Below, piece after piece: positions 2,686-25,057 of a DNA stretch of 64,000 nt (its first letter is position 1; each line of letters starts with the position of its first letter). The stretch is from Spirochaetia bacterium (lineage in GTDB: Bacteria; Spirochaetota; Spirochaetia; CADAEX01). Both the position numbers and the translations under genes were made by a program. The notes beneath the pieces were generated by a model that had not been told where the DNA came from, made no database searches, and saw only the letters and a program-made list of their open reading frames with translations. Location of the stretch: contig CAXXHA010000010.1 of assembly GCA_963662265.2 (NCBI GenBank), positions 160,001-224,000 on the forward strand, read 5' to 3'.

Positions 2686-2707
2686 TTATCACGCAATACA
2701 GACAATT
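2686..2707 (+). repeat. 22-bp direct repeat, copy 1 (downstream of integrase)
   Basis: TTATCACGCAATACAGACAATT vs TTATCATGCAATACAGACAATT at 3619-3640 (21/22). Confidence 0.85.
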
Positions 2708-2742
2708 TGGATTTTAAGACTTATCAGGAAATACACATAACT

Positions 2743-3543
2743 CTATAACGGGCTCTTCACCCTCTTTGATACAGGGTCTGCAAGGTTTATATAGATCATT
2801 GTTGTCTTGACCGATTTATGCCCCAGAAGATCCTTAACTGTCTTGATATCAATCCCGGCCTCTATCAGGTGCGTGGCGAAACAATGCCTGAGAGTATGGC
2901 AGGTTGCACTTTTCTGAATCAAACTCTTATTGAGAGCATTCTCGAATATTTTCTGGACCGTCCTTACAGAATATTTCTTCCCTGAAATTGTCCTGAAAAC
3001 ATAATCAGAAGCATTTCTCCCTGCAGTAAGCTGTCTTAAAGATTCTGAATACTTTTCCGAAAGAAGAGTAATCCTGTCCTTGTTCCCCTTGGAATCCCTT
3101 ATCTTAAGCGATAAGTCATTGAAATTAATATCCCTTATTTTTATTCTGCAGACCTCACTCACACGGAGACCGCTGCCGTAAAGAAGGGAGATAATAAGCT
3201 GATGCTTTTTGTTCTCAATATTTCCTAGAAGCTTAAGGACCTCCTCCCTTGAAAGAATATCGGGAAGCCTTTTCCTTGTTCTTACCCTGTCAAGCTTATA
3301 AGGACAGGGCTTGTCCAGTACAAGAGTATAAAACAGCTTTATCGCTGACCAGGCAAGCCTTCTCTGCTCACTCGAACTCTCTTCATTTTCAAGAAAAAGA
3401 GCAATCCTCCTTTCAGGATCAAAATCAGTTTTCCGGGAATATTCAAGAAAATGCTTCAGATGACCCGTATAAATCCTTACAGTATTTTTCGAATAATTCC
3501 GGTTCTTAAGCTCCCTTGTAAAATCTTCAAGATAATTTTTCAT
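2743..3543 (-). CDS. IntI-like tyrosine recombinase lacking the IntI-specific insertion (266 aa from the RBS-supported ATG)
   Basis: N-terminal RNYSKNTVRIY SAM-like domain; catalytic GLRVSE, SKGNKDR, HTLRH, LGH, TMIY; IntI-like C-terminal KSPL; only ~64 aa between catalytic K and HxxR. Confidence 0.92.
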   Translation of the reverse strand: MKNYLEDFTRELKNRNYSKNTVRIYTGHLKHFLEYSRKTDFDPERRIALFLENEESSSEQRRLAWSAIKLFYTLVLDKPCPYKLDRVRTRKRLPDILSREEVLKLLGNIENKKHQLIISLLYGSGLRVSEVCRIKIRDINFNDLSLKIRDSKGNKDRITLLSEKYSESLRQLTAGRNASDYVFRTISGKKYSVRTVQKIFENALNKSLIQKSATCHTLRHCFATHLIEAGIDIKTVKDLLGHKSVKTTMIYINLADPVSKRVKSPL

Positions 3544-3590
3544 GAAAAACGACCCCCTAGTATGTATAACAAGGGAAAAAGTAATTCTGC

Positions 3591-3619
3591 TTGAATTATA
3601 CACCCGCAGACTTTAAAAT
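3591..3619 (+). promoter_or_regulatory. Pc-like promoter facing the cassette array
   Basis: TTGAAT-17 bp-TAAAAT, ending ~25 bp before the first GTT; a divergent TATAAT (3595-3600, - strand) could serve the integrase. Confidence 0.55.
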
Positions 3620-3647
3620 TATCATGCAATACAGACAATTATAGTTA
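3619..3647 (+). other. Putative attI-like primary site: direct repeat copy 2, then ATA, then first GTTA (3644-3647)
   Basis: The first GTTA of the array is not preceded by a spacer hairpin; lies between the integrase start and cassette C0. Confidence 0.55.
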
Positions 3648-3866
3648 TCGTAAATGACAGGCCTTTGGAAATTTAGAAAGTCATTGATTCTTGACTTCTT
3701 TCTTCATGGCAAGGAACACAGCTGTATAAATTCAATTGTGAATTATGATGCTAATTATTGAAATATTAAGAATAGTTAAAATGCCGAGAATTAAATTTGA
3801 AGAAGCCATGAAGAAATTCTGACTTACATTGATTTGTAGATCTTGAAGCCTGTCACTCCCGATAAC
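3644..3866 (+). mobile_element. Cassette C0, no ORF of 60 aa or more
   Basis: Ends GTTATCGTAAATGACAGGC / GCCTGTCACTCCCGATAAC are inverted repeats (16/19); internal 12-bp IR at 3699-3710 / 3805-3816. Confidence 0.8.
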
Positions 3867-4026
3867 AGAGAATACCCGGTTCAGGCATAAGTAGTAAAAA
3901 GTATAGGGCTTAACTGCCGTTCACCCAAAATGTCGGAGCTTTTCTTGTTGCGTGTAAAATCTGGTAGGTATATGATTATTTTAATACGTGGAGAATCCGA
4001 CATCTTCGGATATTCTCAGAACGTTA
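3863..4026 (+). repeat. Spacer family A (attC-like), copy 1, 164 bp
   Basis: TAACAGAGAATACCCG...TGTCGGA...TCCGACA..CGGATATTCTCAGAACGTTA; homologous to 5035-5199 and 13663-13824. Confidence 0.9.
3948..3976 (+). promoter_or_regulatory. Putative sigma70 promoter inside spacer A copy 1
   Basis: TTGCGT-17-TATGAT; equivalent at 5121-5149 and 13746-13774. Confidence 0.55.
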
Positions 4027-4098
4027 AGTGCAATTCTTTGCTTAATATATTTTTTCCTCGCCATCCATGGCTCGGATTTAGAAAAGGAGTATTTCAAA

Positions 4099-4965
4099 AT
4101 GAAAAAAATTATTATTTATTGTTTAGCACTGTTTTTATTATTTTCATGTGCTAATAATGAATTTAATGTAGAACTTGGTATTGATGCAAACTTCATTGAG
4201 AATGATTTAAAAATTACAGGATCAACAAATCTTCCGGATGGTGCAATGATTTCATTAAATCTTAAACCACTATATGAAGAAGAAGTTTCTATTAAAGATG
4301 GAAAAATTGAACATACATTCTCTTTTAATGGAGATGCTATACCTGATGGAGATTATACACTAGAAGCAATATTTATTCCTACTCAAAACGAATCACCAAA
4401 ATTAAAAAATATGATTCTAATTGAAAATGAAAATGTATATGAAAAAGATGGAATAAAATATTATTATATCGGAAATAATTTTAATATAAACAAAGTAGTT
4501 AAAAATAAAGAGCTAAAAAATTTAATAAACAGAAAAGTTCCATATGAAAAATGGAATGATTGGGGAAATCCTGAAACTCTTGAACAAACTAACAATATTT
4601 TTTGGGCAGCATATCTCGAGAAAGCTGATATTTCTTTTATATCAAAAAAAGAGAATGATAAAATCATTTTTGCATGTAGAGGAAAAGAAAAACTAGAAAA
4701 ATATTTTACTGATCGTCAAAATAATATTGAAATTGGATTTTCTCTTTGGGATGGTTCGCATAAAAAACTTACAGAATTAATCAAACAAAGTATGAATGAC
4801 GCAAAAAGTTATGAACATGTTAAAACTGTTTACTGGGATAAAGGAGATCATTTAATAGTTAAAACAGATTTTAGGGGTGCAAATGTTTTTGGAGGTATCG
4901 TCTTAGATTCTGTTACTGCTAAGACATCTATTGATGGTGAGATCTTAGAAATAATTTCAGATTAA
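4099..4965 (+). CDS. Lipoprotein of unknown function (cassette C1, 4023-5038)
   Basis: AAGGAG RBS then MKKIIIYCLALFLLFSC signal and lipobox; the ORF-track start at 3988 lies inside the spacer. Confidence 0.8.
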   Translation: MKKIIIYCLALFLLFSCANNEFNVELGIDANFIENDLKITGSTNLPDGAMISLNLKPLYEEEVSIKDGKIEHTFSFNGDAIPDGDYTLEAIFIPTQNESPKLKNMILIENENVYEKDGIKYYYIGNNFNINKVVKNKELKNLINRKVPYEKWNDWGNPETLEQTNNIFWAAYLEKADISFISKKENDKIIFACRGKEKLEKYFTDRQNNIEIGFSLWDGSHKKLTELIKQSMNDAKSYEHVKTVYWDKGDHLIVKTDFRGANVFGGIVLDSVTAKTSIDGEILEIISD

Positions 4966-5034
4966 TTTTTTACTGCCAGAAAGTACATCCCTGTACTTTC
5001 TGGAATTTATTAAAATTCAGCAAAGAACAGCACT

Positions 5035-5199
5035 TAACAGAGAATACCACGGTTCAGGCTTAAGCAGTAGAAGCATGTAGCAAAACAGCCGTTCACCCAA
5101 AATGTCGGGACTTTTTATTGTTGCAGGTGGAATCTGTTGGGTATAAGATTAATTAAATATCTGGAGCATCCGACATCTTCGGGTATTCTCAGAACGTTA
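5035..5199 (+). repeat. Spacer family A, copy 2, 165 bp
   Basis: Same terminal IR and internal motifs as copy 1; TTGCAG-17-TAAGAT at 5121-5149. Confidence 0.9.
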
Positions 5200-5431
5200 T
5201 GTACAATGAGCCCGACAAGAGGAAGACGCCCGGACCTCCGGCCGACGGGCGAAGAGATAATATATATATGTTATATCGAAAGAAGGAGTAAAAATGAGAT
5301 TGAAGGCATTAATATTAGAGAACTTCCGAGGCTATTCTGGAGTAAATTTAATTAATTTTGAAAAAGACTGGAAATGGCAAGTCATTTTCCCCACATTTAG
5401 GAAATTAAAAATCCCCCACCTGCAGAAAAAA

Positions 5432-6172
5432 TTATACCCCCTTTTTCTCCTGAATTCTATATGAATCTCCCTCAAGGGAGAAAACATGCGCATGATGTAA
5501 AAGCCTATCAAGCATTGCTGTTGTCATGATTTCATCACCCATCATTTCAGACCACTGATCAAAACCTTTATTTGAAGTAATTATTACTGACGATCTTTCA
5601 TAGAGTTCGCTGATAAGATTAAAAAAAAGATTGGCCTCTTTTCTGTCGATAGGCGTATAGCCTATTTCATCAATAATTAGTAACGAAGATCTGAGAATCC
5701 TGTTTATTCTGAATGAACTTGATCTCATAGTTTCCATTGTTTTCAACAGTTTTATTAGTGAAGTTATCCTTTCAAAACAGACAGTGTATCCGGCTTCAAT
5801 TGCCTTGTACCCGAGAGCAATTGATAGATGTGTTTTCCCAAGGCCGGGAGGTCCAAAGAACATGATATTTTCAGATTTATCTATCCACCTGAAATCCTTG
5901 AGATTATTTAACTGTTCTTCAGTTATCCCTTTTATTCTTGAAAAATTGAATGTCTCAAGTTCCTTAATTACAGGAAAATGGGCACCTGTAAGATTTCTAT
6001 GAAGACGTCTTTCATTTCTGAAATGTACTTCTTCTGTAAGAAGGATGCTTAAAAAATCAAGATGAGATATTTTCTCCTTTGTTGCTTTTTCAAGTGCCTC
6101 ATCAAGATTAACAGATATTCCTTTAAGCTTTAGACTATCAAGTATTCCTGTACAGTAATCAAAACAGCTCAT
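5432..6172 (-). CDS. istB: IS21 helper ATPase
   Basis: GPPGLGKTHL Walker A, LLIIDEIGY, TSN, LDRLLHH, GDSYR. Confidence 0.95.
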   Translation of the reverse strand: MSCFDYCTGILDSLKLKGISVNLDEALEKATKEKISHLDFLSILLTEEVHFRNERRLHRNLTGAHFPVIKELETFNFSRIKGITEEQLNNLKDFRWIDKSENIMFFGPPGLGKTHLSIALGYKAIEAGYTVCFERITSLIKLLKTMETMRSSSFRINRILRSSLLIIDEIGYTPIDRKEANLFFNLISELYERSSVIITSNKGFDQWSEMMGDEIMTTAMLDRLLHHAHVFSLEGDSYRIQEKKGV

Positions 6173-7731
6173 AAAGCACCTCCTAAAAGACTTACAAGTG
6201 AGGTGTAGTAACTTAAATCCCTTTTCTTTACTTCTATGTTTTTATTCTCATGTTTTACAGCTTTTATTCCTGTAAGAAGCTGTGGCAGAATATCCGGATA
6301 ATTTTCAGTTTCACAGCTTCTTACATAAAGATAAGACTCTTCAAAATTCCTTGCAGATAGTGTTCCGTTTTCAATGCATAAATCTGCAGTTTTTGCTATT
6401 AACTTATCATCAGGATTTGAGTTTATGAAAGCATAAAGCTCGCGCTGCTGATCTCTGTAATACCTGCTGTATTTTTTGTAATTCTGATCAACATATTGTT
6501 TCCATGAGTTACTGCTAAATCTGTTCTTTAATTTTTTGATAACTTCATCGGGCTTGGAATCATAATTCCTGAAATGATTATGTTTGGTTATTTTTTTCCC
6601 CTTTATCGGTGAGATTTTGTGCCTGGCAATCTCTTCTCCATCTATTTTGTCATAGATAAAAAGGTCTGTATCTGTTTGGTAAATCCAGACAGTTTTTTTT
6701 CTGAACCTGTTAGGGACAGAGTAAAATGAAGATGAAACACTTATCAATGATTTACTATTTACTTCCCTTGATTCTTTATTTATGATGCTTTCCCTTCTGA
6801 AAATAGACGGCTTTAATTTTTTAAAATGTGGAATCTCTTTAAGCAAAGCTTCTTGAGGAATTATTCCAGTTGCCTGGCATATTTTACCGTTAGCTCTTCT
6901 TGAAAGCCAATTATTTAATGCCTCCTGTATTTGATCAAAGGATGTGAAATGTCTTGCTGAAAAGAAACTGCTTTTGATGAATTTCACAAAGTTTTCGACT
7001 TTACCTTTGCTCTCAGGGTCTGCTTTTCTGCAGACATACATCTTAAACCCCTGCTCATCCTTGAAGGCTTTAAATTCTTTTGTATACTTAATATCTCCGC
7101 TGTTTTCTTTAACAACCATGACTTTGTCCTGATCAATCACGATTTCTTCAGGTACCCCTCCTATTATTTCAAAGGTATCAAGTAAATGATTTATCACATC
7201 TATGGATTTAAACGGCCTCTTCTGTACTGCTGCATACTTGAATCTGCTTACAGATAGAATGACTCCAAAGATATATACTTTCTCACCGGTTTCTATTTCA
7301 GTTTCTCCGAAATCAAGCTGTAGTTGTTTTCCATGTGGAAGTTCTTCAACCGGTGTATAGATTCTCTTGTATTCGTAATTATCTACTTCTCCTGTTTTCT
7401 TTAAGAAAATGAGATAATTTCTCAAAGTCCTTTCAGTGCCGGGAAGTTCTCCATATTTTTCTTCAAGAACATCATAGATTGATGAAGTGTATATTTTATT
7501 GTTATTTAAATTAAAAATATTCAGTATTTCATCTTTGAAAGGAGCAAAAATCTTTTCCTTTTCTACACTGTTTATCTGGTATTCAAGATACTCTGCTTCC
7601 GACATTTCAAAGTATTTTCTAACTGTTTTTCTGTCGATTTTTAATTCTCTGGATATTTTCCTTTTTGAATATCCTCTATTCTTGAAAACTCTTATTTTTT
7701 GGTACATATTCATAGTAATCATTTGAGTCAT
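6169..7731 (-). CDS. istA: IS21 transposase
   Basis: N-terminal HTH (IDRKTVRKY), QLDFG, GGVPEEIVIDQ, SKGKVE. Confidence 0.95.
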   Translation of the reverse strand: MTQMITMNMYQKIRVFKNRGYSKRKISRELKIDRKTVRKYFEMSEAEYLEYQINSVEKEKIFAPFKDEILNIFNLNNNKIYTSSIYDVLEEKYGELPGTERTLRNYLIFLKKTGEVDNYEYKRIYTPVEELPHGKQLQLDFGETEIETGEKVYIFGVILSVSRFKYAAVQKRPFKSIDVINHLLDTFEIIGGVPEEIVIDQDKVMVVKENSGDIKYTKEFKAFKDEQGFKMYVCRKADPESKGKVENFVKFIKSSFFSARHFTSFDQIQEALNNWLSRRANGKICQATGIIPQEALLKEIPHFKKLKPSIFRRESIINKESREVNSKSLISVSSSFYSVPNRFRKKTVWIYQTDTDLFIYDKIDGEEIARHKISPIKGKKITKHNHFRNYDSKPDEVIKKLKNRFSSNSWKQYVDQNYKKYSRYYRDQQRELYAFINSNPDDKLIAKTADLCIENGTLSARNFEESYLYVRSCETENYPDILPQLLTGIKAVKHENKNIEVKKRDLSYYTSLVSLLGGAL

Positions 7732-9749
7732 TCCTGGTAGTTTTTGTCGTGATTACATACTAAGGTTTGACTCTTTTTTTTCCTATAGGGTGGGGAATTT
7801 TATTTTCCATCCTATGGGGATTTCATGTTACCATTTCCAAAGACCTAACATCTTTTATAGGAAAGAATGATAGTGGTAAGTCATCAATTCTTGAAGCTCT
7901 TGAGATATTTTTTAATAGTAAAGTTATTAAAATTGATGGTGATGATAAATTTGTACGTTCATTAGAAAATATTGTGAATATTGGTTGTGTTTTTACGGAT
8001 CTTCCAGAAAAAGTCATTATTGATGAAACTAATGAGACATCATTTATAGATGAATATCTTACAAATGAAAATGAGGATTTGGTTGTTTTAAAGAGATTTA
8101 AAATACAGAAAACTGCAAGTAAACCGGAAACATTTATAATAGCAAATCATCCTAGTAAAACTGGTTATGACGACTTACATAGTTTAAAAATCGGCGAATT
8201 AAAGAAGAGAGGAAAAGAATTAGGTATTAAAGATACCGTAGAAGATCAGAGAATTAGTGCTCATTGGAGAAAAGCGATTTGGTCTTCAACTGATAATTTG
8301 GAAATACAAAAATCTGAAATTGAAATTACACAATTAAGCACAGAATCAAAAAAATTATATACAAGAATAAGTGAAGCAATGCCAACATTTGCTCTTTTCC
8401 GATCAGATAGAGAAAGTAGTGACTCTGATCCCGAAGCGAAAGACCCTATGCAATTAGCAGTAAATGAAGCAAAAAAAACTTATGAAGCTCAAATTAATGA
8501 ATTACAAGAGAAAATAGAAAAAAGTGTTTTCGAGGTTGCAGAAAGAACGCTAGAAAAAATGAATGAAATGGATCCTTCTTTAGCTAATGAATTGAACCCA
8601 AGATTAAAAGAAACACCAAAATGGAGTTTTAGTTTTACAATTGATGGTGATGAAAATATTCCAATTAATAAGAGAGGTAGTGGGGTCAGGAGACTTGTTC
8701 TTTTAAATTTCTTTAGAGCAGAAGCTGAAAGAAAGAAAATTCAAAATCATTCTCCTGATGTAATATATGCAATTGAAGAACCTGAAACATCTCAGCATCC
8801 GAATTATCAGCAATTATTGATTGATTCATTGATAGCATTATCACAAAATGATAATTGTCAGGTTTTATTAACAACACATGTTCCAGCATTGGCAGAAAGA
8901 TTAGAAATTAACTCTATTAGATTTATTGAGAAAATCGGATTAGGTGAAATTAAAGTTCATATGCATAATGATTATGTTTTAGAATTAGCTACAGAAAGTT
9001 TAGGGATAATGCCTGAAAAAGAAATATCTTTAGCCAATAAAGTTATATTAGTTGAAGGTCATAGTGATATAACATTTTTGAATAAAATTAGTGAAGAATA
9101 TAAGAATGCGGGAGAAATAACGTCAACATTAAGTGATTCAAAAATATATCCAATACCTATTGGTGGATGCGGGAATCTTAAACATTGGATAACCAAACGC
9201 ATAATAGATAAAATGGGAATAGAATATTTTATTTTAATGGATTCAGATTTAGGAGATCCAGTAAATAATTCTAGAAACATTACTAAAATAAATGAAATTA
9301 ATACAAATGGTCAAATCGGATATTTAACAAATAAACGAGAACCTGAGAACTATATTGATCCAGATTTATTGAAAACAAAGTATGATAAAGATATTAGATA
9401 CACTAACACTTGTGATGCGAAAAAAATAATTGGAAAAGAATTAACAATTAGACCAAATGATGTTCTTGAGTTTATATGGCCACATATGGAATATCAGCAT
9501 ATGAAAAAAATGGCGAAATATGGTGATAAAGATGAATTCAAAGAGTGGATGGATGCGTTCTTAGAATAATGATAATATGAATATTCTAGCTAAGAAGATT
9601 ATAATGGTGAAGAATCCAAACCTCTGAAATAAAGACAAATAGAGAATGTAATTACTTTTTACAAATAGTATTGCTGACGATATTTTTAAGAATAGCTTAA
9701 ATATCTGGTAGAATACGTTCAATAACAATTAAATAAATGGTATAATTTT

Positions 9750-16345: not shown

Positions 16346-16423
16346 TGAAAATGTGAAGCCAAAAATATCCATGTATTTGGCAGAGGATATAATCAATAAT
16401 TTCTAAAAACAAAAACTGGGTTA

Positions 16424-16499: not shown

Positions 16500-16526
16500 C
16501 AGGCAACTACATTCTGAGGAGACTTA

Positions 16527-17078
16527 ATGATAAACAGTGAACGACTTACTTTGAGAAACATCGAAGAGAGAGATATTACTTTTCTTGAAGAAATCTTACT
16601 CGATAAGCGTTTAATGAAATTTATACCACTCCCAATTTCGAATCATGATCAGGTTGAATCATTTATGAAATCATTGATTAAAGCCCAATGTTTACAAAAG
16701 AGAAAACAGTATTTTTTAATAATTGAAGCGAATGATTCAAAGCAGCAAATTGGTACGATAACTGGAAAAATTATTAGCGAAGAAATACAAGATGGTATCG
16801 GTATTCTGGGATATACAATTTTGAAAGAATATTGGGGAAATGGATATGCTACTGAAGCAACAAATACTATTATTTCCTTTTTTCTGAATGAATTGAAACT
16901 TCATAGACTCGAAGCATCAAGTGTAGCTGACAACAAATCATCAGAGAATGTGTTAAAAAAAGTAGGAATGAAATATGAAGGGACTAAACGTAAGTCTCTG
17001 AATATTGATGGAATCTGGTATGATGAATTACAATACGGGATTCTCAGAAACGATATTTCTGCGAACTTTGAATTGTAG
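16527..17078 (+). CDS. RimJ/RimL-family GNAT (cassette 16496-17089)
   Basis: SERLTLR, LGY..LKEYWGNGYATEA, N..S..VLKKVGM. Confidence 0.88.
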   Translation: MINSERLTLRNIEERDITFLEEILLDKRLMKFIPLPISNHDQVESFMKSLIKAQCLQKRKQYFLIIEANDSKQQIGTITGKIISEEIQDGIGILGYTILKEYWGNGYATEATNTIISFFLNELKLHRLEASSVADNKSSENVLKKVGMKYEGTKRKSLNIDGIWYDELQYGILRNDISANFEL

Positions 17079-17085
17079 CTTCCTA

Positions 17086-17163
17086 TAACAGCGCATGTGC
17101 GGTGCTGCATTCGGCTTTACGCAAATTGGCCTTTGACCAACATCGCATATTCGCAATACGTTG
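17086..17163 (+). repeat. Family B spacer
   Basis: TAACAGCGCATGTGCG...TTGGCCTTTGACCAACATCGCATATTCGCAATACGTTG. Confidence 0.85.
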
Positions 17164-17289
17164 TACATCATATCAAAATATTATCGTCATTAGCGGCGAT
17201 TAAAGGCAAAAAAGATTTTAAAGAGAAAGGCGATGTTTTTGAAGTAAAAGACATTTCCTGGATAGAAAATATCAGAGGAAAAATATTAT

Positions 17290-17829
17290 ATGAAAAGATA
17301 TATTGCCTTGTTGCGGGGAATTAATATAAGTGGAAAAAACAAGATATCCATGTCTGAATTAAAGAATGGATTTACAGAACATGGTTTTACAGAGGTTGTG
17401 ACATATCTTAATAGTGGTAATGTGATCTTTTCATGTATTAATAATAATGAAGCTGTTCTTTCAAATGAAATAAAGTTAATGATAAAAGAAAGATTTGATT
17501 TAAACATACCGGTTTTTGTTGTCTTACAAGAAAAATTAGAAGAACTATTAAATCATGCTCCCGGTTGGTGGGGAAATGATAACAAAGAAATATATGATAA
17601 TCTCATTTTTATGATGCCTCCTTTATCTTATGAGGAGTTTTATGATGTAATCGGCAATCCTAAAGCGGAATATGAAAAAGTGCATAATTACAGCAATGTT
17701 ATTTTCTGGTCATTTATACGGAAAGATTATCAAAAGACAAATTGGTGGTCAGGGACTGCTGGCTCAAACATAAGTGATAAGATTACAATTCGAACAGCTA
17801 ATACAGTAAGAAAGATAGTGAGTATGTGA
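17290..17829 (+). CDS. DUF1697 family protein
   Basis: YIALLRGINISG.NKI.M.EL...V.TYLNSGNVIF. Confidence 0.85.
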   Translation: MKRYIALLRGINISGKNKISMSELKNGFTEHGFTEVVTYLNSGNVIFSCINNNEAVLSNEIKLMIKERFDLNIPVFVVLQEKLEELLNHAPGWWGNDNKEIYDNLIFMMPPLSYEEFYDVIGNPKAEYEKVHNYSNVIFWSFIRKDYQKTNWWSGTAGSNISDKITIRTANTVRKIVSM

Positions 17830-17879
17830 TATATAGTAGTGAGGTTAATTAAAATCTCAATATTACTTATGGAGAAAGA

Positions 17880-18074
17880 ATGAGAATTGAAAATGTCAGC
17901 AAAAAAGACTATTCACAGTTAATTGAAATATGGGAAACTTCTGTACGTTCAACTCATGATTTCCTGACTGAAAAGGATATTATATCGTTAAGATCTTTAA
18001 TAATTGATAAATATTTTCCTGCTGTTGACCAACTTCCCATATTCGTGAAACGTTATAAGCAATTAATAAATTGA
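17880..18074 (+). pseudogene. 3'-truncated GNAT (YjaB-like) fused to the right half of a spacer
   Basis: IWETSVRSTHDFL N-terminus runs into GTTGACCAACTTCCCATATTCGTGAAACGTTA. Confidence 0.75.
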
Positions 18075-18095
18075 TTAGTTTAAAGGAGTTCTAAT

Positions 18096-18590
18096 ATGAA
18101 AGCTGCATTAATGATAATTGATATGCAAAAAGAATATTTCACTGGTCTTGCAAAAAAATCAATGACCGAAGCATCCGAGTATATAAATGAAGTTTTAGGG
18201 TATTTCAGAGAACGAAAACTGCCTATTGTTTGGGTTCAGGATATTGATAAAAAATGTGGAGTTGTTCCAGATTCAGAAGGTTTTGAAATTATTGATTTAC
18301 TAGAGAAGCAGAATAATGAAATAAGTATTTTCAAAGAATATGGAAATAGTTTTAATAAAACAGAATGTGGAAATATCCTAAAGAAAGAAAATGTCGATGT
18401 AATTGTAATAACTGGATACTGTGCAGAATATTGTGTTTTATCTACATATCGAGGCGCTCAGGATTTGGATTTTACACCAGTCATACTGAAAAAAGGAATT
18501 GCGAGTGGTGATTATCAGAATCTACAATTTATTGAGAAAATCTGTGATACAATTCCCTATAATATAATCAGCAAGATGATTGGAAAATAA
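18096..18590 (+). CDS. Isochorismatase-family cysteine hydrolase
   Basis: ALMIIDMQ, K...NSF, G..AEYCV.ST. Confidence 0.88.
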   Translation: MKAALMIIDMQKEYFTGLAKKSMTEASEYINEVLGYFRERKLPIVWVQDIDKKCGVVPDSEGFEIIDLLEKQNNEISIFKEYGNSFNKTECGNILKKENVDVIVITGYCAEYCVLSTYRGAQDLDFTPVILKKGIASGDYQNLQFIEKICDTIPYNIISKMIGK

Positions 18591-18616
18591 TACTCCCAAG
18601 TACTACTGACTGTTCA

Positions 18617-18703
18617 TAACAGGGGCTATTTACTCCGCCAAGTCGGGCTTCGTGCTGCACCATTTTTGGCCTAAGCCAAACATCACATAACCCAAGAACG
18701 TTA
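18617..18703 (+). repeat. Degenerate spacer
   Basis: TAACAGGGGCTAT...ATAACCCAAGAACGTTA followed by TTGGC-AAT. Confidence 0.75.
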
Positions 18704-18741
18704 TTGGCAATATCCCTTAAGATCAACATGTGAGGAAGATA

Positions 18742-19647
18742 ATGAGAATCAAGCTGGAAAAGCATACGACAAGCATATTACAGGCACTCCTCGTGACTTT
18801 TCTCTGGTCTACATCTTTCATTATCATCAAAAAGGGATTGCTCTCAATACCACCTCTGACATTTGCTGGCCTAAGATACTTTTTTGCATCACTTTGCTTG
18901 TTGCCATTTTCATTTATGCCGCAACGTCAATCTGAAATCCGGAAATTGGGTAAAAATAAATGGGGTAAACTGATTATTTTAGGCATGGTATTCTATGTGT
19001 TTACCCAGGGGATACAATTCATAGGTCTATCACTTCTGCCTTCCACAACTGTCAGCTTAATGCTCAATTTTACTCCTGTAATAGTTATGATACTAAGTGT
19101 CGTATTCATTAATGAAAAACCGGTGAAAAGACAAGTCGCGGGAGTATTCATCTTTGTTGCAGGAGCTCTTGTTTATTTTCTACCTTTATCAAATCTCGGG
19201 GCGCAGTTAATAGGATTGATTGTTATGGCCTTTGGCATTATTTCAAATGCAATTTCATCGGTTTTAGGAAGAAATATAAATCGAGATAAAGAAATTACTC
19301 CGTTTACAATTACATTAATTTCGATGTCATTTGGTTCAATGCTTCTCCTGATTACCGGGCTTGTCATTGAAGGAATACCAAGTATACCACTCCGGTCATG
19401 GATATCTCTGATTTGGTTATCAGTTGTAAATACCGCATTTGCATTTACACTTTGGAACCGATCTCTTCGTCACCTTACAGCAATGAAATCAAGTATCATC
19501 AACGGAACAATGTTGATTCAAATCGCTATATTGGCCTGGATTTTTCTAGGAGAGGGCCTCTCCGGGACCAATATCGGCGGCATGATTATTGCATCAATCG
19601 GTGCAATATTAGTCCAGTTGCGGTATAAAGAGAAGGTAAGCAATTAG
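18742..19647 (+). CDS. DMT/EamA transporter
   Basis: About 10 TM segments, LWSTSF, duplicated EamA pattern. Confidence 0.88.
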   Translation: MRIKLEKHTTSILQALLVTFLWSTSFIIIKKGLLSIPPLTFAGLRYFFASLCLLPFSFMPQRQSEIRKLGKNKWGKLIILGMVFYVFTQGIQFIGLSLLPSTTVSLMLNFTPVIVMILSVVFINEKPVKRQVAGVFIFVAGALVYFLPLSNLGAQLIGLIVMAFGIISNAISSVLGRNINRDKEITPFTITLISMSFGSMLLLITGLVIEGIPSIPLRSWISLIWLSVVNTAFAFTLWNRSLRHLTAMKSSIINGTMLIQIAILAWIFLGEGLSGTNIGGMIIASIGAILVQLRYKEKVSN

Positions 19648-19668
19648 CGGAGACCGGGAGACTATCAA

Positions 19669-19745
19669 GAACAGTGAATATGTGGTTCAGCATTCAGCAT
19701 CTCCCAAAATGCCGTTGACCAACATCGCATATTTACAAAACATTA
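19669..19745 (+). repeat. Degenerate family B spacer (GAAC...ATTA)
   Basis: GAACAGTGAATATGTG...GTTGACCAACATCGCATATTTACAAAACATTA. Confidence 0.75.
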
Positions 19746-19786
19746 TAGTTAATTTTGAATTAAGATTTTAATCAAGGAGTTTTCAT

Positions 19787-20218
19787 TTGAATATTACTAA
19801 AATGACAATAGCTGACTATGACGAAGCATTTAAACTCTGGTCAAATACTGAAGGGATGGGACTACGCTCCCTTGATGACTCACAAAAGGGTATTGATTCT
19901 TTTTTACAGAGAAATCCCAACACAAATTTTGTTTGCAGAAATAACAGTGAATTGATTGGTGTCATTTTATCAGGGCATGATGGTCGAAGAGGTTATATTT
20001 ATCATGCTGCTGTACATCCAAATTACCGGAGAAAGGGAGTTGGAAGAAAACTTGTAAAAGAAGTTATTTCTTCGCTGGACAAAGAGGGAATAAAAAAAGT
20101 CGCATTAGTTGTTTTCTCAAGCAATCAGAAAGGCAATGACTTCTGGGAATCTTTAGGCTTTATAAATAGAAAAGACTTGAATTATAGAAATCTCGCTATT
20201 GATCCTACAAATATTTGA
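19787..20218 (+). CDS. GNAT acetyltransferase (YpeA-like)
   Basis: GHDGRRGYIYH.AV.P.YRRKGVG. Confidence 0.88.
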   Translation: MNITKMTIADYDEAFKLWSNTEGMGLRSLDDSQKGIDSFLQRNPNTNFVCRNNSELIGVILSGHDGRRGYIYHAAVHPNYRRKGVGRKLVKEVISSLDKEGIKKVALVVFSSNQKGNDFWESLGFINRKDLNYRNLAIDPTNI

Positions 20219-20246
20219 TAAGCAAACACTTAATTTAAACTTTCAA

Positions 20247-20330
20247 GAACAGACAATATATGATCCGCCCAGCTACGGGCTCGCCAAATCCATTACTTAG
20301 TGCTAGACTTCATATATTTCTTAAACGTTA
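20247..20330 (+). repeat. Degenerate spacer
   Basis: GAACAGACAATATATGA...TCATATATTTCTTAAACGTTA. Confidence 0.7.
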
Positions 20331-20361
20331 TATCTAATTATATTTTGTAAAGAGAACATAA

Positions 20362-20883
20362 ATGAAACATATAGAAATAAAAGAAATTACTGAAATAGAC
20401 ATCCCTGAAATTGTAGACATTTGGTATGAAGTTTCTCTTCAAGCTCATGGATTTATTTCCAGCGAATATTGGAGAGCGAACAAAGATCAAATGAGTAATA
20501 AATACATACCAATGTCTGAAACATTTCAAGCAACAGATGGTGAAAATATATTAGGATTTATCTCATTATTAGATGATTATCTTGCTGCAATTTTTGTAAA
20601 ATCTGAATTCCAGGGAAGAGGAATTGGATCTTTATTATTAAACCATGCAATGAGTCTTCGCAATAATCTGCAATTAAAAGTATTCTGCAAAAATGCAAAG
20701 AGTATAGAATACTATAAATCAAAAGGTTTTTCTGTAATTTCAGAATCAAAAGATAATGAGACAGGAGAAAATGAGCTTGTCATGAAGTGGCATAAAAAAA
20801 AACTAGACGTAACAAGAAATATGCACAGCCCTACAGGCTTGGCCTTCGCAAATGCAGCGTTGCTTCTCTTTGCATATTTCTGA
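20362..20883 (+). CDS. GNAT acetyltransferase (YiaC-like), C-terminus reads through the next spacer
   Basis: AHGFI...YW, FV..EFQGRGIG; the last ~25 aa are encoded by spacer 20810-20890. Confidence 0.82.
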   Translation: MKHIEIKEITEIDIPEIVDIWYEVSLQAHGFISSEYWRANKDQMSNKYIPMSETFQATDGENILGFISLLDDYLAAIFVKSEFQGRGIGSLLLNHAMSLRNNLQLKVFCKNAKSIEYYKSKGFSVISESKDNETGENELVMKWHKKKLDVTRNMHSPTGLAFANAALLLFAYF

Positions 20884-20890
20884 AACGTTT
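20810..20890 (+). repeat. Degenerate spacer
   Basis: TAACAAGAAATATGCA...TGCATATTTCTGAAACGTTT then GGCGC-AAT. Confidence 0.75.
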
Positions 20891-21014
20891 GGCGCAATTT
20901 GTCCCCCAAGAAAAACATTGCCCGGACATCCAGCCAACAGACTAAAATAACACTTCATGATGTGGTAATTAAATTAGCTGGTGAAAAAAACCATTTTTTA
21001 TGAGAAAATAGTTT

Positions 21015-21521
21015 ATGAATGAACAAAATTTTATAGAAAAAGATAATAACATTAGAAATAAGTTTGATACCATAATTTTATACTATTCTTATCATCATAA
21101 AAATACTGAAAAGATTGCAAAAGCAATAGGCGATATTTTAAAAGCAGAAGTCTATCCAATAGAAGAGTTGAAACAAATAAATATTGATAAATATAAATTG
21201 ATAGGTTTTGGAGCAGGAATTGATAGTTGTCAACACTATAAAGAGTTAATCGAGTTTATAGATAAAATAGAAAAAAATGAAGGAAAAGAGGCGTTTATCT
21301 TTTCGACCAGCGCGATTTACAATAAAGATAAGATGAAAAACGATCATTTAAAATTGAGAAATATTTTAGAAAACAACGAGTATAGAATTATAGGGGAATT
21401 TAGCTGTAAAGGTTTTAACACCAATAGTTTTTTGAAATATTTCGGAGGAATGAATCGAGGTCGTCCAAATGATGAAGATATAAAAAATGCTCAAGAGTTT
21501 GCAAAGAAATTATTAATATGA
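21015..21521 (+). CDS. Flavodoxin-family protein
   Basis: YYSYHHKNTEKIAKAI, GFGAGI, GRPNDED. Confidence 0.85.
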   Translation: MNEQNFIEKDNNIRNKFDTIILYYSYHHKNTEKIAKAIGDILKAEVYPIEELKQINIDKYKLIGFGAGIDSCQHYKELIEFIDKIEKNEGKEAFIFSTSAIYNKDKMKNDHLKLRNILENNEYRIIGEFSCKGFNTNSFLKYFGGMNRGRPNDEDIKNAQEFAKKLLI

Positions 21522-21633
21522 GCAACTAGGGTGCTCGATAAACTTAATGTTTTTATAAAGAAGTTTGTTGATCCAGAGATTTAGAATCCAGACCGAACTC
21601 TGTTTAATATTCTGAATGTTGAACCAAAGCATA

Positions 21634-21742
21634 TAAGAGGGGCTATGTCGCATTGCTATAAGCTCACTGGCCTGAGGCATATGGCCTATGTCAAAATTTC
21701 TGCGCAGTAACTCCGGGAACTTAGCATATTCTTGAACCGTTA
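21634..21742 (+). repeat. Highly degenerate spacer
   Basis: TAAGAGGGGCTATG...GCATATTCTTGAACCGTTA. Confidence 0.6.
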
Positions 21743-21785
21743 AATACATTACAATTTGTTTAATAACACCTTAAAGAGGACAATA

Positions 21786-22235
21786 ATGATAAGACAACTG
21801 AATGAAAAGGATTATTCTATCTGGCTTGAAATGGCAGAAGAAGTTGAGCATTTATTTGGACCGATGGTACAAAATAAAGATTTTCAGGAAGGGATTAAGT
21901 CATGCATCAATAAAGGTGACTCATTTTGTACGACTAACAGTGATGGAATTGTGACCGGTATAATTGCTATAGACAGGACACAAAATGAAATTTCCTGGCT
22001 TGCTGTTAGGAAACAGTATAGAGGTAATAAAACAGGTGATATTTTAGTAAAAAAAGCAGTAGATGAATTACTTGATAATGGGAATATCTATGTTCAAACA
22101 TTTTCTGAAAATGCTGAGGTTGGAAATAGTGCCAGAAAGCTATATTTAAATAATGGATTTACTGATTTTAATGCAGCCGGTAAAAATCCAGCTGGAATAG
22201 ATACTGTAATAATGGTGAGAAAGGCTGGAAAATAG
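21786..22235 (+). CDS. GNAT acetyltransferase
   Basis: ISWLAV...YRG, ARKLY...GF. Confidence 0.82.
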   Translation: MIRQLNEKDYSIWLEMAEEVEHLFGPMVQNKDFQEGIKSCINKGDSFCTTNSDGIVTGIIAIDRTQNEISWLAVRKQYRGNKTGDILVKKAVDELLDNGNIYVQTFSENAEVGNSARKLYLNNGFTDFNAAGKNPAGIDTVIMVRKAGK

Positions 22236-22463
22236 TAAAAATCGTACAAGATCTAATCTTATAATGTTATATGTAACAATTTTTGATAAAATTATTTCAA
22301 CAAGGAATAAAATAAATGTTTGAATGGAATCACAATTCCACCTAAAACAACTTTCAAGGAGATAAAGAAAGCATCGCAATTTTCTGAAACAACAAGGGAT
22401 TTTTCCGATTAAATATAATATGATAAAAAAAAGATTCTGGAATTACTGGGAGAATTATAATAT

Positions 22464-22820
22464 ATACAGCCAAAAGAATTAGTAAAATTATGGGTAGATG
22501 CTTTTAATGATGGAGATGCAACAAGAATATCCGATTTCTATGCAGAAAATGCTGTTAACCACCAGGTAGCTAATGAACCAGTTGAAGGAAAATCTGCAAT
22601 AACTGATATGTTTAAACAGGAATTTTCTGCTGCAAAAATGGTTTGTGTAGTTGAAAATATTTTTCAAGATGGAGATTGGGCAATTCTTGAATGGAAAGAT
22701 CCTTTAGGATTACGGGGCTGCGGCTTTTTTCATATCTTAAATGATAAAATAATTTTTCAGAGAGGTTATTGGGATAAACTCAGTTTTTTAAAAGCACATA
22801 ACTTGCCAATTCCAGAATAG
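22464..22820 (+). CDS. SnoaL/NTF2-like protein; start codon appears mutated to ATA (possible pseudogene)
   Basis: The open frame upstream of the 22608 ATG reads QPKELVKLWVDAFN.GD...FYAENAVNHQV; followed by ACT-N5-TAAC at 22824-22835. Confidence 0.7.
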   Translation: MQPKELVKLWVDAFNDGDATRISDFYAENAVNHQVANEPVEGKSAITDMFKQEFSAAKMVCVVENIFQDGDWAILEWKDPLGLRGCGFFHILNDKIIFQRGYWDKLSFLKAHNLPIPE

Positions 22821-23044
22821 AAAACTTCTCTTAACAGCAAATATGCACTTCATCATTCAGCTTCTCTTAAAAACAGCAATTTGCCGGCTTTGCAGTAAAT
22901 ATAGCATTCCAACTAAAACTTTATATAATAAAATTTAAAATAAGAAGGAAACACTGTGGCCTAGAGGAAATAAGAGAGATTTACAGGCAAAAGCTGTTTG
23001 CTCAAATGTTTTTTTACAAGTATTATTGAAAAAAGGAAAAAGTA

Positions 23045-23488
23045 ATGAGAATAGAAAAAATTAAAAAGAACAAGAAGCAGCACCTTGATTTATTGCTATT
23101 GGCAGATGAGCAAGAGGATATGATTGACAGATATCTGGAAAGTGGAGATATGTTTGCACTATTCGATCATGACTTGAAGACTGTTTGTGTTGTTGCCGCA
23201 ATAGACAAAGAAACATGCGAATTAAAAAACATAGCAACATATGAAAAATACCAGGGTAAAGGATATGCTAAAGCTCTAATTAAATTTGTCTCAGATTATT
23301 ACAAAAACGACTATGAAACAATGCTTGTCGGAACAGGAGAAACTCCCAAAATATTGTCATTTTATGAAAGTTGCGGATTTGAAAAATCTCATGTTATCAG
23401 GAATTTTTTTACAGATAATTATGACCATCTAATGTTTGAAGACGGAATACAGCTTATTGACATGGTTTATCTGAAGAAATTTTTATAA
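23045..23488 (+). CDS. GNAT acetyltransferase
   Basis: LLLLADE, ELKNIAT...QGKGY, FYE.CGF. Confidence 0.88.
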
Positions 23489-23560
23489 ATATCTGCGGCT
23501 AATAAAAATCTTTCCGCATCCTTTAATAGGAAGGTAAGAAATACACGTCAGGAGTAAATT

Positions 23561-24073
23561 ATGTATAATCATTCAATTCCGTATAAGAAAAAAGGATTAT
23601 ATATCCTGATTACATTGCCGCTTATTCTGGTTTATATATTAATAGGATATTATTTAAACAATATAGGTAATATTAATCTCATCATTTATATCACTTTATT
23701 TACTATAACAATTATTTTTCAGAGTTATAATTGTATATATTGGAAATGTCCACATGTTGGAACTCTTTGCCCAGGCGCCGGCGGTTTTTGTGTACTATCA
23801 AGTCCTATTGGAAAATTATTAATTAATATGAAAATAAAGAGTTCTGAGAAATTATATAAAATACTCTGCAGCATTGCTTTTACAGGTTTTTTGGGGATAA
23901 TTTTATATCCGGTCTATTTCATATATAAATTAAGTATTTTATATCTAGCTTTTTATTTTTTTATAATTTCAGCTTATTTCTTGTTTATGATGATATTGAT
24001 CTGTCCTGACTGCGGAGCTAAAAAAGCATGCCCGGGAGGACAATTTTCATTAAAAATAAAAAAACAATGTTGA
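23561..24073 (+). CDS. Membrane protein with Cys clusters, unknown function
   Basis: Four hydrophobic segments; C...CP....CP and CPDC....CP motifs. Confidence 0.7.
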   Translation: MYNHSIPYKKKGLYILITLPLILVYILIGYYLNNIGNINLIIYITLFTITIIFQSYNCIYWKCPHVGTLCPGAGGFCVLSSPIGKLLINMKIKSSEKLYKILCSIAFTGFLGIILYPVYFIYKLSILYLAFYFFIISAYFLFMMILICPDCGAKKACPGGQFSLKIKKQC

Positions 24074-24242
24074 AACAGTTTAATAAGGAAAGTTCAGATA
24101 AATATTTTACCGGAACAAAACTAATGGAGCCTGGATTATTGTGATAAGAAAGGAATTATAAAGCTAAGGCAGATATTCGGATGAACACAAGGTAAACAGG
24201 ATTCATACATCAGGACTCATAAAATGATAAAGGAAAATATTT

Positions 24243-24743
24243 GTGGTTGAAAAATTTGCAATACCAGGTGTAGGCGGAATAATAAGAAAATATAATAATA
24301 ATTCGCAGGAATATATTCTTGTTCAGGACAGAGTAAAACCGAATTATGAAAACATGAAAGGAATCATTGAAATCCCCGCAGGAAAAATAAGAGAATTTGA
24401 AAATATCTATTCTTGTTTAAGAAGAGAAATTTATGAAGAAACCGGCTTGAGTGTTGAAGAAATTGATGGTGAGGACTTATCAGAAATTATAAAAATCAAT
24501 AATTATGAAGTCCTGTCATATGAACCTTATTCCAGCAGTCAGAATATATCTGGAGATTATCCGATCTTAGTACAGGTATTTTTATGTACTGTTAATGACG
24601 GAAAAGACCCGATTAAAGAAAGTGATGAGTCGAAAAATATTCGATGGATAACGAAAGAAGAATTAAAGAGACTACTGCTTGAAGAGATAGATAGTTTCTT
24701 TCCAATGCATATATCTACTTTGAAAAAATATTGTGGAATATAA
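24243..24743 (+). CDS. NUDIX hydrolase
   Basis: PAGK...E.....LRREIYEETGL Nudix box. Confidence 0.88.
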   Translation: MVEKFAIPGVGGIIRKYNNNSQEYILVQDRVKPNYENMKGIIEIPAGKIREFENIYSCLRREIYEETGLSVEEIDGEDLSEIIKINNYEVLSYEPYSSSQNISGDYPILVQVFLCTVNDGKDPIKESDESKNIRWITKEELKRLLLEEIDSFFPMHISTLKKYCGI

Positions 24744-24796
24744 CAACAACAAAATAATTCCATGTTTTTTATTTAAAAAGGAGTGTTGGTTAATAA

Positions 24797-24934
24797 ATGC
24801 TTGAATGGAAAGATCCTTTAGGATTACGGGGCTGCGGCTTTTTCCATATCTTAAATGATAAAATAATTTTTCAGAGAGGTTATTGGGATAAGCTCAGTTT
24901 TTTAAAAGTACATAATTTGCCGATCCCAGAATAG
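24797..24934 (+). pseudogene. Duplicated 3' fragment of the SnoaL-like gene
   Basis: 24800-24934 matches 22686-22820 with about 6 mismatches. Confidence 0.85.
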
Positions 24935-25057
24935 TTTTTTTTCAACAAATATGCAGTTCAGCTTTTCGCTTCACCTGAACTGGATGTTGGTAAATAAGCA
25001 TTTATGAGAAACATTGGGTATAATAAAAAACTTTGACGGAGGATTTAGGAGGTAAGA

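What the first reader, a model, noticed from the sequence alone, without database searches (positions are those of the whole stretch)
2686..25030. Non-canonical integron-like cassette system: short integrase, self-complementary cassettes, promoter-bearing spacers
Seen: a divergent tyrosine recombinase, a Pc-like promoter and about 13 or more AT-rich units, all joined at ...TAAC-spacer-(AAC)GTTA-N5-AA(T/C)... Known: integrons have this layout and cross over at G/TT. Three properties differ from classical integrons. The integrase has no I2 insertion. Cassette ends pair with each other over 16-24 bp rather than the 7-bp R''/R' box. The spacers have an asymmetric bulge, and one family holds a promoter. 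Inference: this is a distinct gene-capture and shuffling system that standard integron detectors may miss. I know of no characterised system with this architecture, but could not search to confirm that.
Basis: partly seen in the sequence, partly recalled or inferred. Interest (0 to 1): 0.92.

Follow-up and report, generated by a model that had tools for sequence, protein, structure and literature searches.

The report
Integron-type array with insert-less integrase
This spirochaete DNA holds a real array of swappable gene cassettes built like an integron, but its recombinase lacks the protein insert thought to define integron integrases and its DNA sites are marked differently, which points to a second, apparently undescribed way of running an integron.

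Summary
Confirmed. A 266-aa tyrosine recombinase (2743-3543, minus strand) with a full catalytic set but no IntI insertion (42 residues shorter than IntI) sits divergently beside an entry site at 3644 and 13 G|TT-bounded units. Cassette ends pair over 20 bp, with a fixed mismatch at position 11 (A facing C; a T-G wobble on the bottom strand; 41 of 45 cassettes) and a 1-versus-5-nt central bulge instead of extrahelical bases. Mobility is shown by comparison: cassettes over 99% identical lie at different array positions in other genomes with ends at G|TT, and a second population leaves the window exactly at 3646. Such cassettes occur at 14 of 30 insert-less-recombinase loci and 0 of 68 canonical-IntI loci. 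The same genome runs a separate canonical integron with 36 textbook attC sites, and the two main arrays share no site type. It works like an integron but fails two defining tests (I2 domain, attC geometry). Catalysis by this enzyme is inferred, not shown. Ten literature searches found no description. This scan has noted the same kind before on other DNA, including another contig of this genome.

The parts
2686..2705 (+). Direct-repeat copy of the left part of the entry site, beyond the 3' end of the integrase gene; no matching right arm; role unexplained
   Evidence: (family D11); similar copies in G001
2721..2740 (+). Second, weaker copy of the same repeat, next to the integrase stop codon
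2743..3543 (-). Tyrosine recombinase, 266 aa, R127-K152-H216-R219-H242-Y251 intact, IntI-like C-terminal S-P-L, no I2 insertion
3591..3619 (+). Pc-like promoter motif (two hexamers, 17-nt spacing); hexamers kept in G001 while the spacer diverged; function not shown
3619..3655 (+). Entry site (attI equivalent): 11-bp left arm 3628-3638, 6-bp centre 3639-3644, crossover G|TT at 3644/3645, 11-bp right arm supplied by the first cassette; an extra arm-like 12-mer at 3619-3630
   Evidence: contigs of a second population leave the window at 3646
3644..4022 (+). Cassette 1: no ORF over 40 codons; ends pair 16 of 20; 156-nt spacer 3867-4022 with promoter-like motif at 3948-3976
4023..5195 (+). Cassette 2: 288-aa protein without Pfam match (4099-4965, lipoprotein-like start, inferred); ends pair 18 of 20; 157-nt spacer 5039-5195 with promoter-like motif
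5196..12752 (+). Cassette 3: defence cassette (OLD-like ATPase-TOPRIM, type II methyltransferase, BsuBI/PstI-family endonuclease); ends pair 17 of 20; 68-nt spacer 12685-12752
5369..7839 (-). IS21-family element (IstA, IstB) inserted in the start of the ATPase-TOPRIM gene of cassette 3; passenger, not part of the system
12753..13820 (+). Cassette 4: RelE / helix-turn-helix toxin-antitoxin pair on the minus strand; ends pair 18 of 20; 154-nt promoter-type spacer; 95% identical copy at another position in the G001 array
13821..14593 (+). Cassette 5: 222-aa protein without Pfam match; ends pair 19 of 20; spacer cut off after 8 nt by an IS3 element
14594..15822 (+). IS3-family element; adjoining spacer and the start of the next cassette are deleted
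15823..16495 (+). Truncated unit: gene fragment, TfoX-N-like gene, 68-nt spacer 16428-16495
16496..17159 (+). Cassette: GNAT acetyltransferase; ends pair 14 of 20; 70-nt spacer
17160..18051 (+). Unit: DUF1697 gene and a 64-aa gene fragment; left half of its spacer is lost
18052..18699 (+). Cassette: isochorismatase family; ends pair 12 of 20; 79-nt spacer
18700..19741 (+). Cassette: EamA transporter; ends pair 12 of 20; 69-nt spacer
19742..20326 (+). Cassette: GNAT; ends pair 10 of 20; start reads ATT instead of GTT; 76-nt spacer
20327..20886 (+). Cassette: GNAT; ends pair 15 of 20; 83% identical relative in the Marispirochaeta array (L036)
20887..21738 (+). Unit: flavodoxin; degenerate end
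21739..25030 (+). Eroded tail: GNATs, NUDIX and small genes with half-spacers near 22260, 22830-22920 and 24940-25015
   Evidence: (D4, D6)

Best explanation
A sedentary integron-type platform of a spirochaete, run by its own insert-less tyrosine recombinase. The enzyme binds 11-bp arms (T-T-N7-A/G-T read outwards). The entry site at 3628-3655 is a double-stranded 11-6-11 site. A free cassette circle folds its bottom strand into a hairpin in which the cassette's two ends form a 20-bp stem with one T-G wobble at position 11, followed by a centre of 10 nt facing 6 nt (a 4-nt bulge next to the cut) and a second arm. The enzyme cuts the bottom strand at AA|C, one strand is exchanged and replication finishes the job, so the cassette enters at G|TT with its spacer behind it. 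The wobble and the bulge take over what extrahelical bases and the I2 helix do in classical integrons: the top strand would carry an A-C mismatch and the bulge on the other arm, so it is the poorer substrate, and the distorted centre blocks the second exchange. Because the 20-bp stem is complete only in the circle, integration is favoured over excision. Long spacers carry a promoter for the next cassette. SHOWN: anatomy, boundaries, mobility, insertion at 3644, polarity of ageing, linkage of site type to enzyme type. INFERRED: that this enzyme catalyses it, single-strand chemistry, the roles of wobble, bulge and promoters.
For: Cassette movement: a 2.05-kb cassette is first behind the entry site in Marispirochaeta (L036) and mid-array in G001, 99.8% identical, ends at G|TT; a 1.56-kb cassette is first in the C5 array of this genome and mid-array in G001, 99.5%; cassette 4 of the window is at another position in G001, 95%. 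The spacer travels with the upstream gene in these three. Entry point: contigs of two runs of a second sample match up to 3646 without a difference (2400-3646 and 3271-3646) and go on with 374 and 254 other letters, while 15823-22300 differs at 2 places. Signature: of 45 consecutive cassettes from 10 arrays, positions 12-20 match in 25-42, position 11 in 2, and position 11 is A facing C in 41; of 40 canonical cassettes pairing fades after position 9. Linkage: 1-versus-5 sites 32 at 44 insert-less loci and 0 at 103 IntI loci; canonical sites 62 and 1 the other way round; wobble-marked cassettes at 14 of 30 and 0 of 68 loci; strict motif in 8 of 14 genomes with a strong insert-less hit and 1 of 27 others. 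Bottom strand folds more stably in 35 of 35 circle junctions. Catalytic residues conserved in 35 homologues; top fold match VchIntIA.
Against: No biochemical test. No circle junction among the joints listed (14 not shown; contigs only). 16 of 30 insert-less loci show no such cassette, and related enzymes sit beside IS91-type transposases instead, so the protein alone does not predict an array. This genome and G001 also encode a canonical IntI that could act in trans. The motif was derived from the window and its kin, so the counts are partly circular for spirochaete loci; kin are not independent. The bottom-strand advantage follows in part from the wobble itself. One canonical-looking attC lies far down the integrase-less C5 array (seen by eye, missed by my rule).
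Confidence: 0.8

Rival explanations
1. Same enzyme, different chemistry: cassettes move by ordinary double-stranded recombination, or by the two 20-bp cassette ends pairing with each other across the gene, and the hairpin in the spacer is only accessory.
For: Arms and the 11-6-11 entry site look like a classical double-stranded core; the enzyme is nearly as close to archaeal XerA as to IntI; IntI itself keeps double-stranded activity (PMC4792948, passages). In the array the 20-bp partners are the two ends of one cassette.
Against: The centre left of G|TT differs between sites and from the entry site, which double exchange would not tolerate; spacer arms vary in sequence yet stay complementary with a fixed 4-nt offset; the position-11 mismatch only makes sense in a folded single strand.
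Confidence: 0.08
2. The canonical IntI on contig C8 serves this array in trans; the short recombinase is a bystander or relic.
For: A 406-aa IntI with the I2 region exists in this genome and in G001 and G002. Some attC sites recombine without extrahelical bases (PMC5027507, passages).
Against: The C8 array has 36 canonical sites and no 1-versus-5 site; the window's array has no canonical site. The short gene is intact and conserved beside the entry site in at least four spirochaete genomes. No wobble-marked cassette at 68 IntI loci. G008 has such an array and no split, IntI-like hit among its listed matches (92% complete).
Confidence: 0.06
3. Host XerC/XerD captures the cassettes at dif-like sites, as for CTX-type elements or pdif modules.
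For: 11-6-11 layout (likeness to dif is recalled, not from a call); an integrase-less array on C5 starts at such a site.
Against: All 41 genomes have Xer-like hits but the motif follows the insert-less recombinase (8 of 14 against 1 of 27). The C5 site lies at no GC-skew switch and was not found at an equivalent place in G001 or G002. The main array starts 100 bp from its own recombinase gene.
Confidence: 0.04
4. The repeats are chance or non-recombining elements (terminators, RNA motifs) in a variable AT-rich island.
For: AT-rich DNA gives many short inverted repeats; distal sites are weak.
Against: Permutation p = 5e-6; shuffles give 0-1 sites; exact shared boundaries between genomes; no credible Rfam match.
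Confidence: 0.01

Closest known systems
Sedentary chromosomal integrons (IntI, attI, attC; VchIntIA, PDB 2a3v)
   Same: Divergent tyrosine recombinase, entry site next to it, Pc-like promoter, co-oriented cassettes, AAC/GTT core, crossover at G|TT, hairpin belonging to the upstream gene, new cassettes at the front and decay at the back, toxin-antitoxin, defence and GNAT cargo, gene-less cassettes. Best fold match.
   Different: No I2 region (42 aa shorter); no extrahelical base in the inner arm; centre paired over 4 bp with a 1-versus-5 bulge instead of 5-6 unpaired nt per arm; cassette ends pair over 20 bp instead of 7-9; fixed T-G wobble at position 11.
Insert-less members of the 'integron-like' tyrosine recombinase subgroup (Smyshlyaev et al., PMC8138268 and bioRxiv 10.1101/542381; NCBIfam NF040815), including those beside IS91-type transposases
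   Same: Short Xer-like enzyme close to IntI without the insertion; NF040815 is the top profile (206.5 bits, cut-off 220); 37-38% identical relatives beside IS91 transposases on Clostridium plasmids.
   Different: The passages read link these proteins to IS91 and IS3 elements and call the insertion essential for integron function; no cassette arrays are described. The IS91-linked loci checked have no such cassettes.
Treponema and other Spirochaetota integrons (PMC3607928)
   Same: Same phylum, chromosomal arrays, strain-specific cassettes.
   Different: Those have the integrase co-oriented with the cassettes and about 410 codons long (T. succinifaciens coordinates in the passage read). Their I2 status and site geometry were not tested here; the 406-aa IntI on C8 has I2 and canonical attC.
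Xer/dif systems and elements that exploit them (CTX phage, pdif modules; archaeal XerA)
   Same: 11-6-11 site layout (recalled), enzyme size and fold; CTX integrates as a folded single strand without I2 (PMC4792948, passage).
   Different: Here a dedicated recombinase lies beside the array, the host has its own XerC/D-like pair elsewhere, and cassettes carry a hairpin with a bulge and wobble.
Promoter-bearing gene-less cassettes of Vibrio superintegrons (bioRxiv 10.1101/2023.11.21.568050)
   Same: Gene-less cassettes and internal promoters that can drive the next cassette.
   Different: Here the motif lies inside the loop of the recombination hairpin itself and is untested.

Membership tests
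Integron (IntI-based) | Tyrosine recombinase with the R-K-H-R-H-Y catalytic set | tested here: met
   PF00589 E 4e-40; R127, K152, H216, R219, H242, Y251 invariant in 35 homologues
Integron (IntI-based) | IntI-specific additional domain (I2 region) | tested here: not met
   Gap against 2a3v; motif distance 91 against 133; profile from 93 canonical I2 regions: -2.7 bits, C8 IntI 89.8 bits; TIGR02249 below cut-off
Integron (IntI-based) | attI next to the integrase gene with insertion at G|TT | tested here: met
Integron (IntI-based) | attC hairpin with AAC/GTT core | tested here: met
Integron (IntI-based) | attC with extrahelical bases at L'' and an unpaired central spacer of 5-6 nt per arm (as defined in PMC5027507) | tested here: not met
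   0 sites of that geometry in 2600-27000 against 36 on C8; 4-nt offset best at 10 of 10 spacers
Integron (IntI-based) | Array of mobile cassettes that differs between strains | tested here: met
Integron (IntI-based) | Pc promoter driving the first cassettes | tested here: inconclusive
   9 of 12 consensus match, no excess over shuffles; hexamers conserved in G001; no RNA data
Integron (IntI-based) | Bottom-strand, single-exchange recombination resolved by replication | not testable with these tools
   Only folding energies
Integron (IntI-based) | Detection by IntegronFinder (intI_Cterm profile, attC covariance model) | not testable with these tools
   Program and models not available; proxies
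Integron (IntI-based) | Integrase inside the IntI clade | tested here: not met
   28 I2-bearing proteins form one branch (SH-aLRT 100) that excludes this enzyme, with the insert columns left out (quick tree, 82 of 159 sequences)
XerC/XerD-dif | Housekeeping XerC/XerD family membership and a single dif at the terminus | tested here: not met
   TIGR02224/02225 155/150 bits against cut-offs 335/330; separate Xer-like pair on C11 groups apart
IS91-associated tyrosine recombinase | IS91-type transposase gene directly downstream | tested here: not met
   The 3' neighbour is a 106-aa ORF (2340-2660) that is also there in G001; no transposase

The most novel reading that the evidence does not exclude
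These arrays are a surviving pre-I2 grade of integrons: a Xer-like enzyme that already shuffles single-stranded cassette hairpins using a wobble and a bulge, from which canonical IntI arose by gaining I2 and switching to extrahelical bases. It would be widespread in lineages that surveys count as integron-poor (the same site grammar appears beside insert-less enzymes in records labelled Firmicutes and Nomurabacteria and in metagenome contigs) and would be a second, orthogonal cassette pool in cells that also hold a canonical integron.
Probability: 0.35. Interest if true: 0.92.

Novelty: new variant of a known kind. Interest (0 to 1): 0.78.

Why it matters
The I2 region is the working definition of an integron integrase, and surveys require it: Cury et al. 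[quoted passage not shown] Escudero et al. 2016 posed a chicken-and-egg problem: how could I2 and attC arise one without the other (PMC4792948, passage). A cassette system that works without I2 makes that question testable with one 266-aa enzyme and short DNA sites, means that a pool of mobile defence, toxin-antitoxin and acetyltransferase cassettes goes uncounted, and offers a recombinase for folded single-stranded DNA that may be orthogonal to IntI1. This genome is a good test bed because it holds both systems side by side.

Tried and rejected
Rfam scan of 2000-29000: one chance match, E 0.21. Generic promoter scan of 3500-5400: 7 sites against 9.2 expected, so no support by itself. First genome-wide pattern was one base too long and missed the window's own sites; repeated correctly. 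First strict canonical-attC rule was too narrow; relaxed. No RNA holder listed for the stretch. No circle junction among the listed joints (contigs cannot show absence). C5 entry site as the chromosomal dif: no skew switch, no equivalent in G001/G002; not supported. Phage collection: best hits 30-34% identical, not followed up. Plasmid hits: two Clostridium loci are IS91-linked without cassettes; the Chryseobacterium locus gave one weak candidate, at shuffle level. The tree does not resolve whether insert-less enzymes are sister to or ancestral to IntI. AlphaFold model (pLDDT 84.7, C-terminal 14 residues poor) shows only a short loop where I2 would lie and no substitute module. Look-ups of earlier findings by sequence and by nearby place gave nothing. 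Supplements of the papers (for example the list of 21 insert-less integrases near attC in PMC4889954) were not read and may hold members of this family.
Full report
Host and setting. The window is G000:C10:160001-224000. The closest named homologues of the recombinase are from Spirochaetota. The region 3.6-25 kb is AT-rich against its flanks and holds co-oriented small genes: GNATs, a toxin-antitoxin pair, a restriction-modification and OLD-like defence block, and two IS elements.

The enzyme. The gene at 2743-3543 (minus strand) encodes 266 aa. It matches PF00589 and, below the curated cut-offs, NF040815 (206.5 of 220 bits) and TIGR02249 (205 of 265, in two stretches). It aligns to VchIntIA in two pieces with about 45 residues missing between them. 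Across the loci scanned, the distance between the two catalytic motifs is about 91 aa in this type and about 133 in canonical IntI. A profile built from 93 canonical I2 regions scores it -2.7 bits and the held-out C8 IntI 89.8 bits. All six catalytic residues are invariant in 35 homologues chosen from the 120 listed. The predicted fold is closest to VchIntIA, then XerA. In a quick tree of 82 of 159 extracted sequences (7 duplicates, 2 odd-length rows and 68 of 96 IntI left out; insert columns dropped) the 28 IntI form one branch that excludes it; the order of deeper branches is open.

The sites. Thirteen units start at G|TT (one at ATT). The first start, 3644, has no hairpin before it but an 11-bp arm and a 6-bp centre: the entry site. 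For 10 cassettes with both ends assignable, own ends match at positions 8-20 in 9.0 of 13 against 4.5 for non-cognate pairs, p = 5e-6. The five proximal cassettes match 16-19 of 20, the distal five 10-15. Position 11 never matches: A at the start faces C at the end in 9 of 10, which is a T-G wobble on the bottom strand. Inside the spacer the arms pair with a 4-nt offset at 10 of 10 complete spacers, so 10 nt face 6 nt between the two arms and there is no extrahelical base of the classical kind.

Internal control. Contig C8 of the same genome carries a 406-aa IntI with the I2 region and an array with 36 sites of textbook geometry (5-nt spacer, 8-nt arm with one extra base, 7-nt arm, 5-6-nt spacer). 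In 40 canonical cassettes (C8, G001, G002) end pairing holds to position 8-9 and then drops (24 of 40 at position 9, 4 at position 10). In all 45 consecutive cassettes of the new type from 10 arrays it holds to position 20 (25-42 of 45 at positions 12-20, 8-19 beyond), with 2 of 45 at position 11 and A facing C in 41. The detector favoured A at position 11 of the start but did not look at the facing base. My canonical rule finds 0 sites in the window's array and in the C5, G001, G028 and L036 arrays, and the 1-versus-5 rule finds 0 on C8.

Mobility. G001 (same genus, complete) has the same left flank and an 82% identical enzyme but a different array of at least 17 sites. A 2.05-kb cassette is 99.8% identical between mid-array in G001 and the first position in Marispirochaeta L036; a 1.56-kb cassette is 99.5% identical between mid-array in G001 and the first position of an integrase-less array on C5 of this genome; the window's toxin-antitoxin cassette lies elsewhere in G001 at 95%. 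All begin and end at G|TT and take the downstream spacer along. In a second sample from another study, contigs identical to the platform leave the window at 3646 and continue with other letters, while 15823-22300 differs at 2 places (two runs, one sample). New cassettes therefore enter at 3644, and the back of the array is old and eroding.

Linkage and spread. Sites with the 1-versus-5 offset: 32 at 44 insert-less loci (0 in shuffles), 0 at 103 IntI loci; canonical sites: 62 at IntI loci (4.3 in shuffles), 1 at insert-less loci (10 duplicate loci skipped; window and C8 included). Wobble-marked cassettes in loci of at least 5 kb: 52 at 14 of 30 insert-less loci (1.0 in shuffles), 0 at 68 IntI loci (L024 was classed by hand as the G028 array). 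Six of the 14 are not spirochaete records: L038 (labelled Firmicutes), L040 (Nomurabacteria), L041 (labelled Gammaproteobacteria) and three metagenome contigs. Against: 16 of 30 show none, and some relatives are tied to IS91-type transposases instead. Among 41 genomes of the class a strict motif occurs in 8 of the 14 with a contiguous hit at E about 1e-38 or better and in 1 of the other 27; two of the six misses (G008, G009) have arrays under the looser rule. Kin are not independent. Longer insert-less enzymes (340-390 aa, co-oriented with the array) use the same cassettes.

Promoters. A motif TTG-N3, 16-18 nt, TA-N3-T lies in 17 of 28 distinct long spacers on the sense strand (3.4 expected, 4 on the reverse strand) and in 0 of 16 short ones, mostly 43-46 nt before the next GTT. 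Most belong to one spacer family, and the match is only 7-8 of 12 in the window. Cassette 1 has no ORF over 40 codons; G001 repeats a 434-bp cassette with such a spacer six times. Function is untested; no RNA run was listed.

Mechanism. By analogy with integrons (PMC4792948 and PMC5027507, passages) I infer bottom-strand cleavage at AA|C in a folded single strand, one exchange with the double-stranded entry site, and replicative resolution. The bottom strand of the predicted circle junction is the more stable one in 35 of 35 cases (those of 45 with at least 14 of 20 matches and no N; mean 4.6 kcal/mol), and circle junctions are more stable than the chimeric sites in the array in 29 of 35 (-36.6 against -26.8). 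The wobble keeps a T on the strand to be cut in both the entry site and the folded site, whereas the top strand would offer C; the bulge sits beside the cut on that same strand. These two marks are my candidates for strand choice and for blocking the second exchange. All of this paragraph is inference.

Rivals. Canonical IntI in trans, host XerC/D, and double-stranded chemistry are each possible but fit the segregation of site types, the linkage and the non-identical centres poorly (see Rival explanations). One observation leaves room for cross-talk: a canonical-looking attC far down the C5 array (by eye).

Literature. Ten full-text searches showed no paper describing cassette arrays run by an I2-less recombinase; the library lacks most subscription journals, and I saw most hits only as listings. 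Passages read: PMC4889954 (21 insert-less integrases near attC judged not IntI), PMC8138268 and 10.1101/542381 (insert-less proteins in the integron-like subgroup, tied to IS91 and IS3), PMC4792948, PMC5027507, PMC3607928, 10.1101/2022.02.06.479319, PMC8352920, PMC5737381 (DUF1874 motif in consecutive spacers without integrase; not matched here), PMC9892861; abstract only: 10.1101/2023.11.21.568050. No supplements were read. Earlier notes of this scan report the same kind in CPR bacteria, phages and Flavobacteriaceae and on another contig of this genome; they are unchecked and count as leads only. I had noted the position-11 mismatch before reading them; the wording 'wobble' follows note e1-6352997.

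Verdict. The feature is real, it works like an integron, and it is not a member of the IntI-defined family as currently defined. New variant of a known kind; interest 0.78.

Noticed in passing
G000:C8 about 30000-78862: Canonical integron with a 406-aa IntI, divergent from its array, and at least 36 attC sites; many gene-less cassettes and one cassette with an IS91-like transposase gene (motif recalled).
   Followed up: partly
G000:C5 about 41500-52350 (L195): Integrase-less array of the new type starting at a solo 11-6-11 site; its first cassette is 99.5% identical to one in G001; a canonical-looking attC lies further down.
   Followed up: partly
window 2686-2740: Two direct copies of the left part of the entry site beyond the 3' end of the integrase gene, also present in G001; possible extra binding sites or traces of platform movement.
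   Followed up: partly
L028 2120-3178 (G002): In G002, same genus, the same chromosomal position holds a different insert-less recombinase (352-aa frame, co-oriented with its array): the platform appears to have been replaced while the cassette type stayed.
   Followed up: partly
L021 7625-18061 (G001): A 434-bp cassette without a long ORF, with a promoter-type spacer, occurs six times, three of them in tandem.
   Followed up: partly
window 5196-5260 and 12620-12684; 20887-20950 and 21564-21620: A conserved GC-rich element just inside the start of several cassettes, with a partner near the end; it recurs in G001, G009, L036 and C5 cassettes. Function unknown.
   Followed up: no
window 22682-22820 and 24796-24934: A 139-bp, 95% identical duplication of a gene end plus half-spacer in the eroded tail.
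   Followed up: no
L129 7481-8341 and 9866-10954: A metagenome contig with an insert-less recombinase and a canonical IntI 1.5 kb apart.
   Followed up: no
L197, L199 (Clostridium estertheticum plasmids): Two copies of a short recombinase plus IS91-family transposase module flank a MerR/DUF554 pair; no cassettes of the new type.
   Followed up: partly
G002:C1 3112652-3120814: A second cluster of four motif hits about 100 kb from the main array, on the other strand.
   Followed up: no
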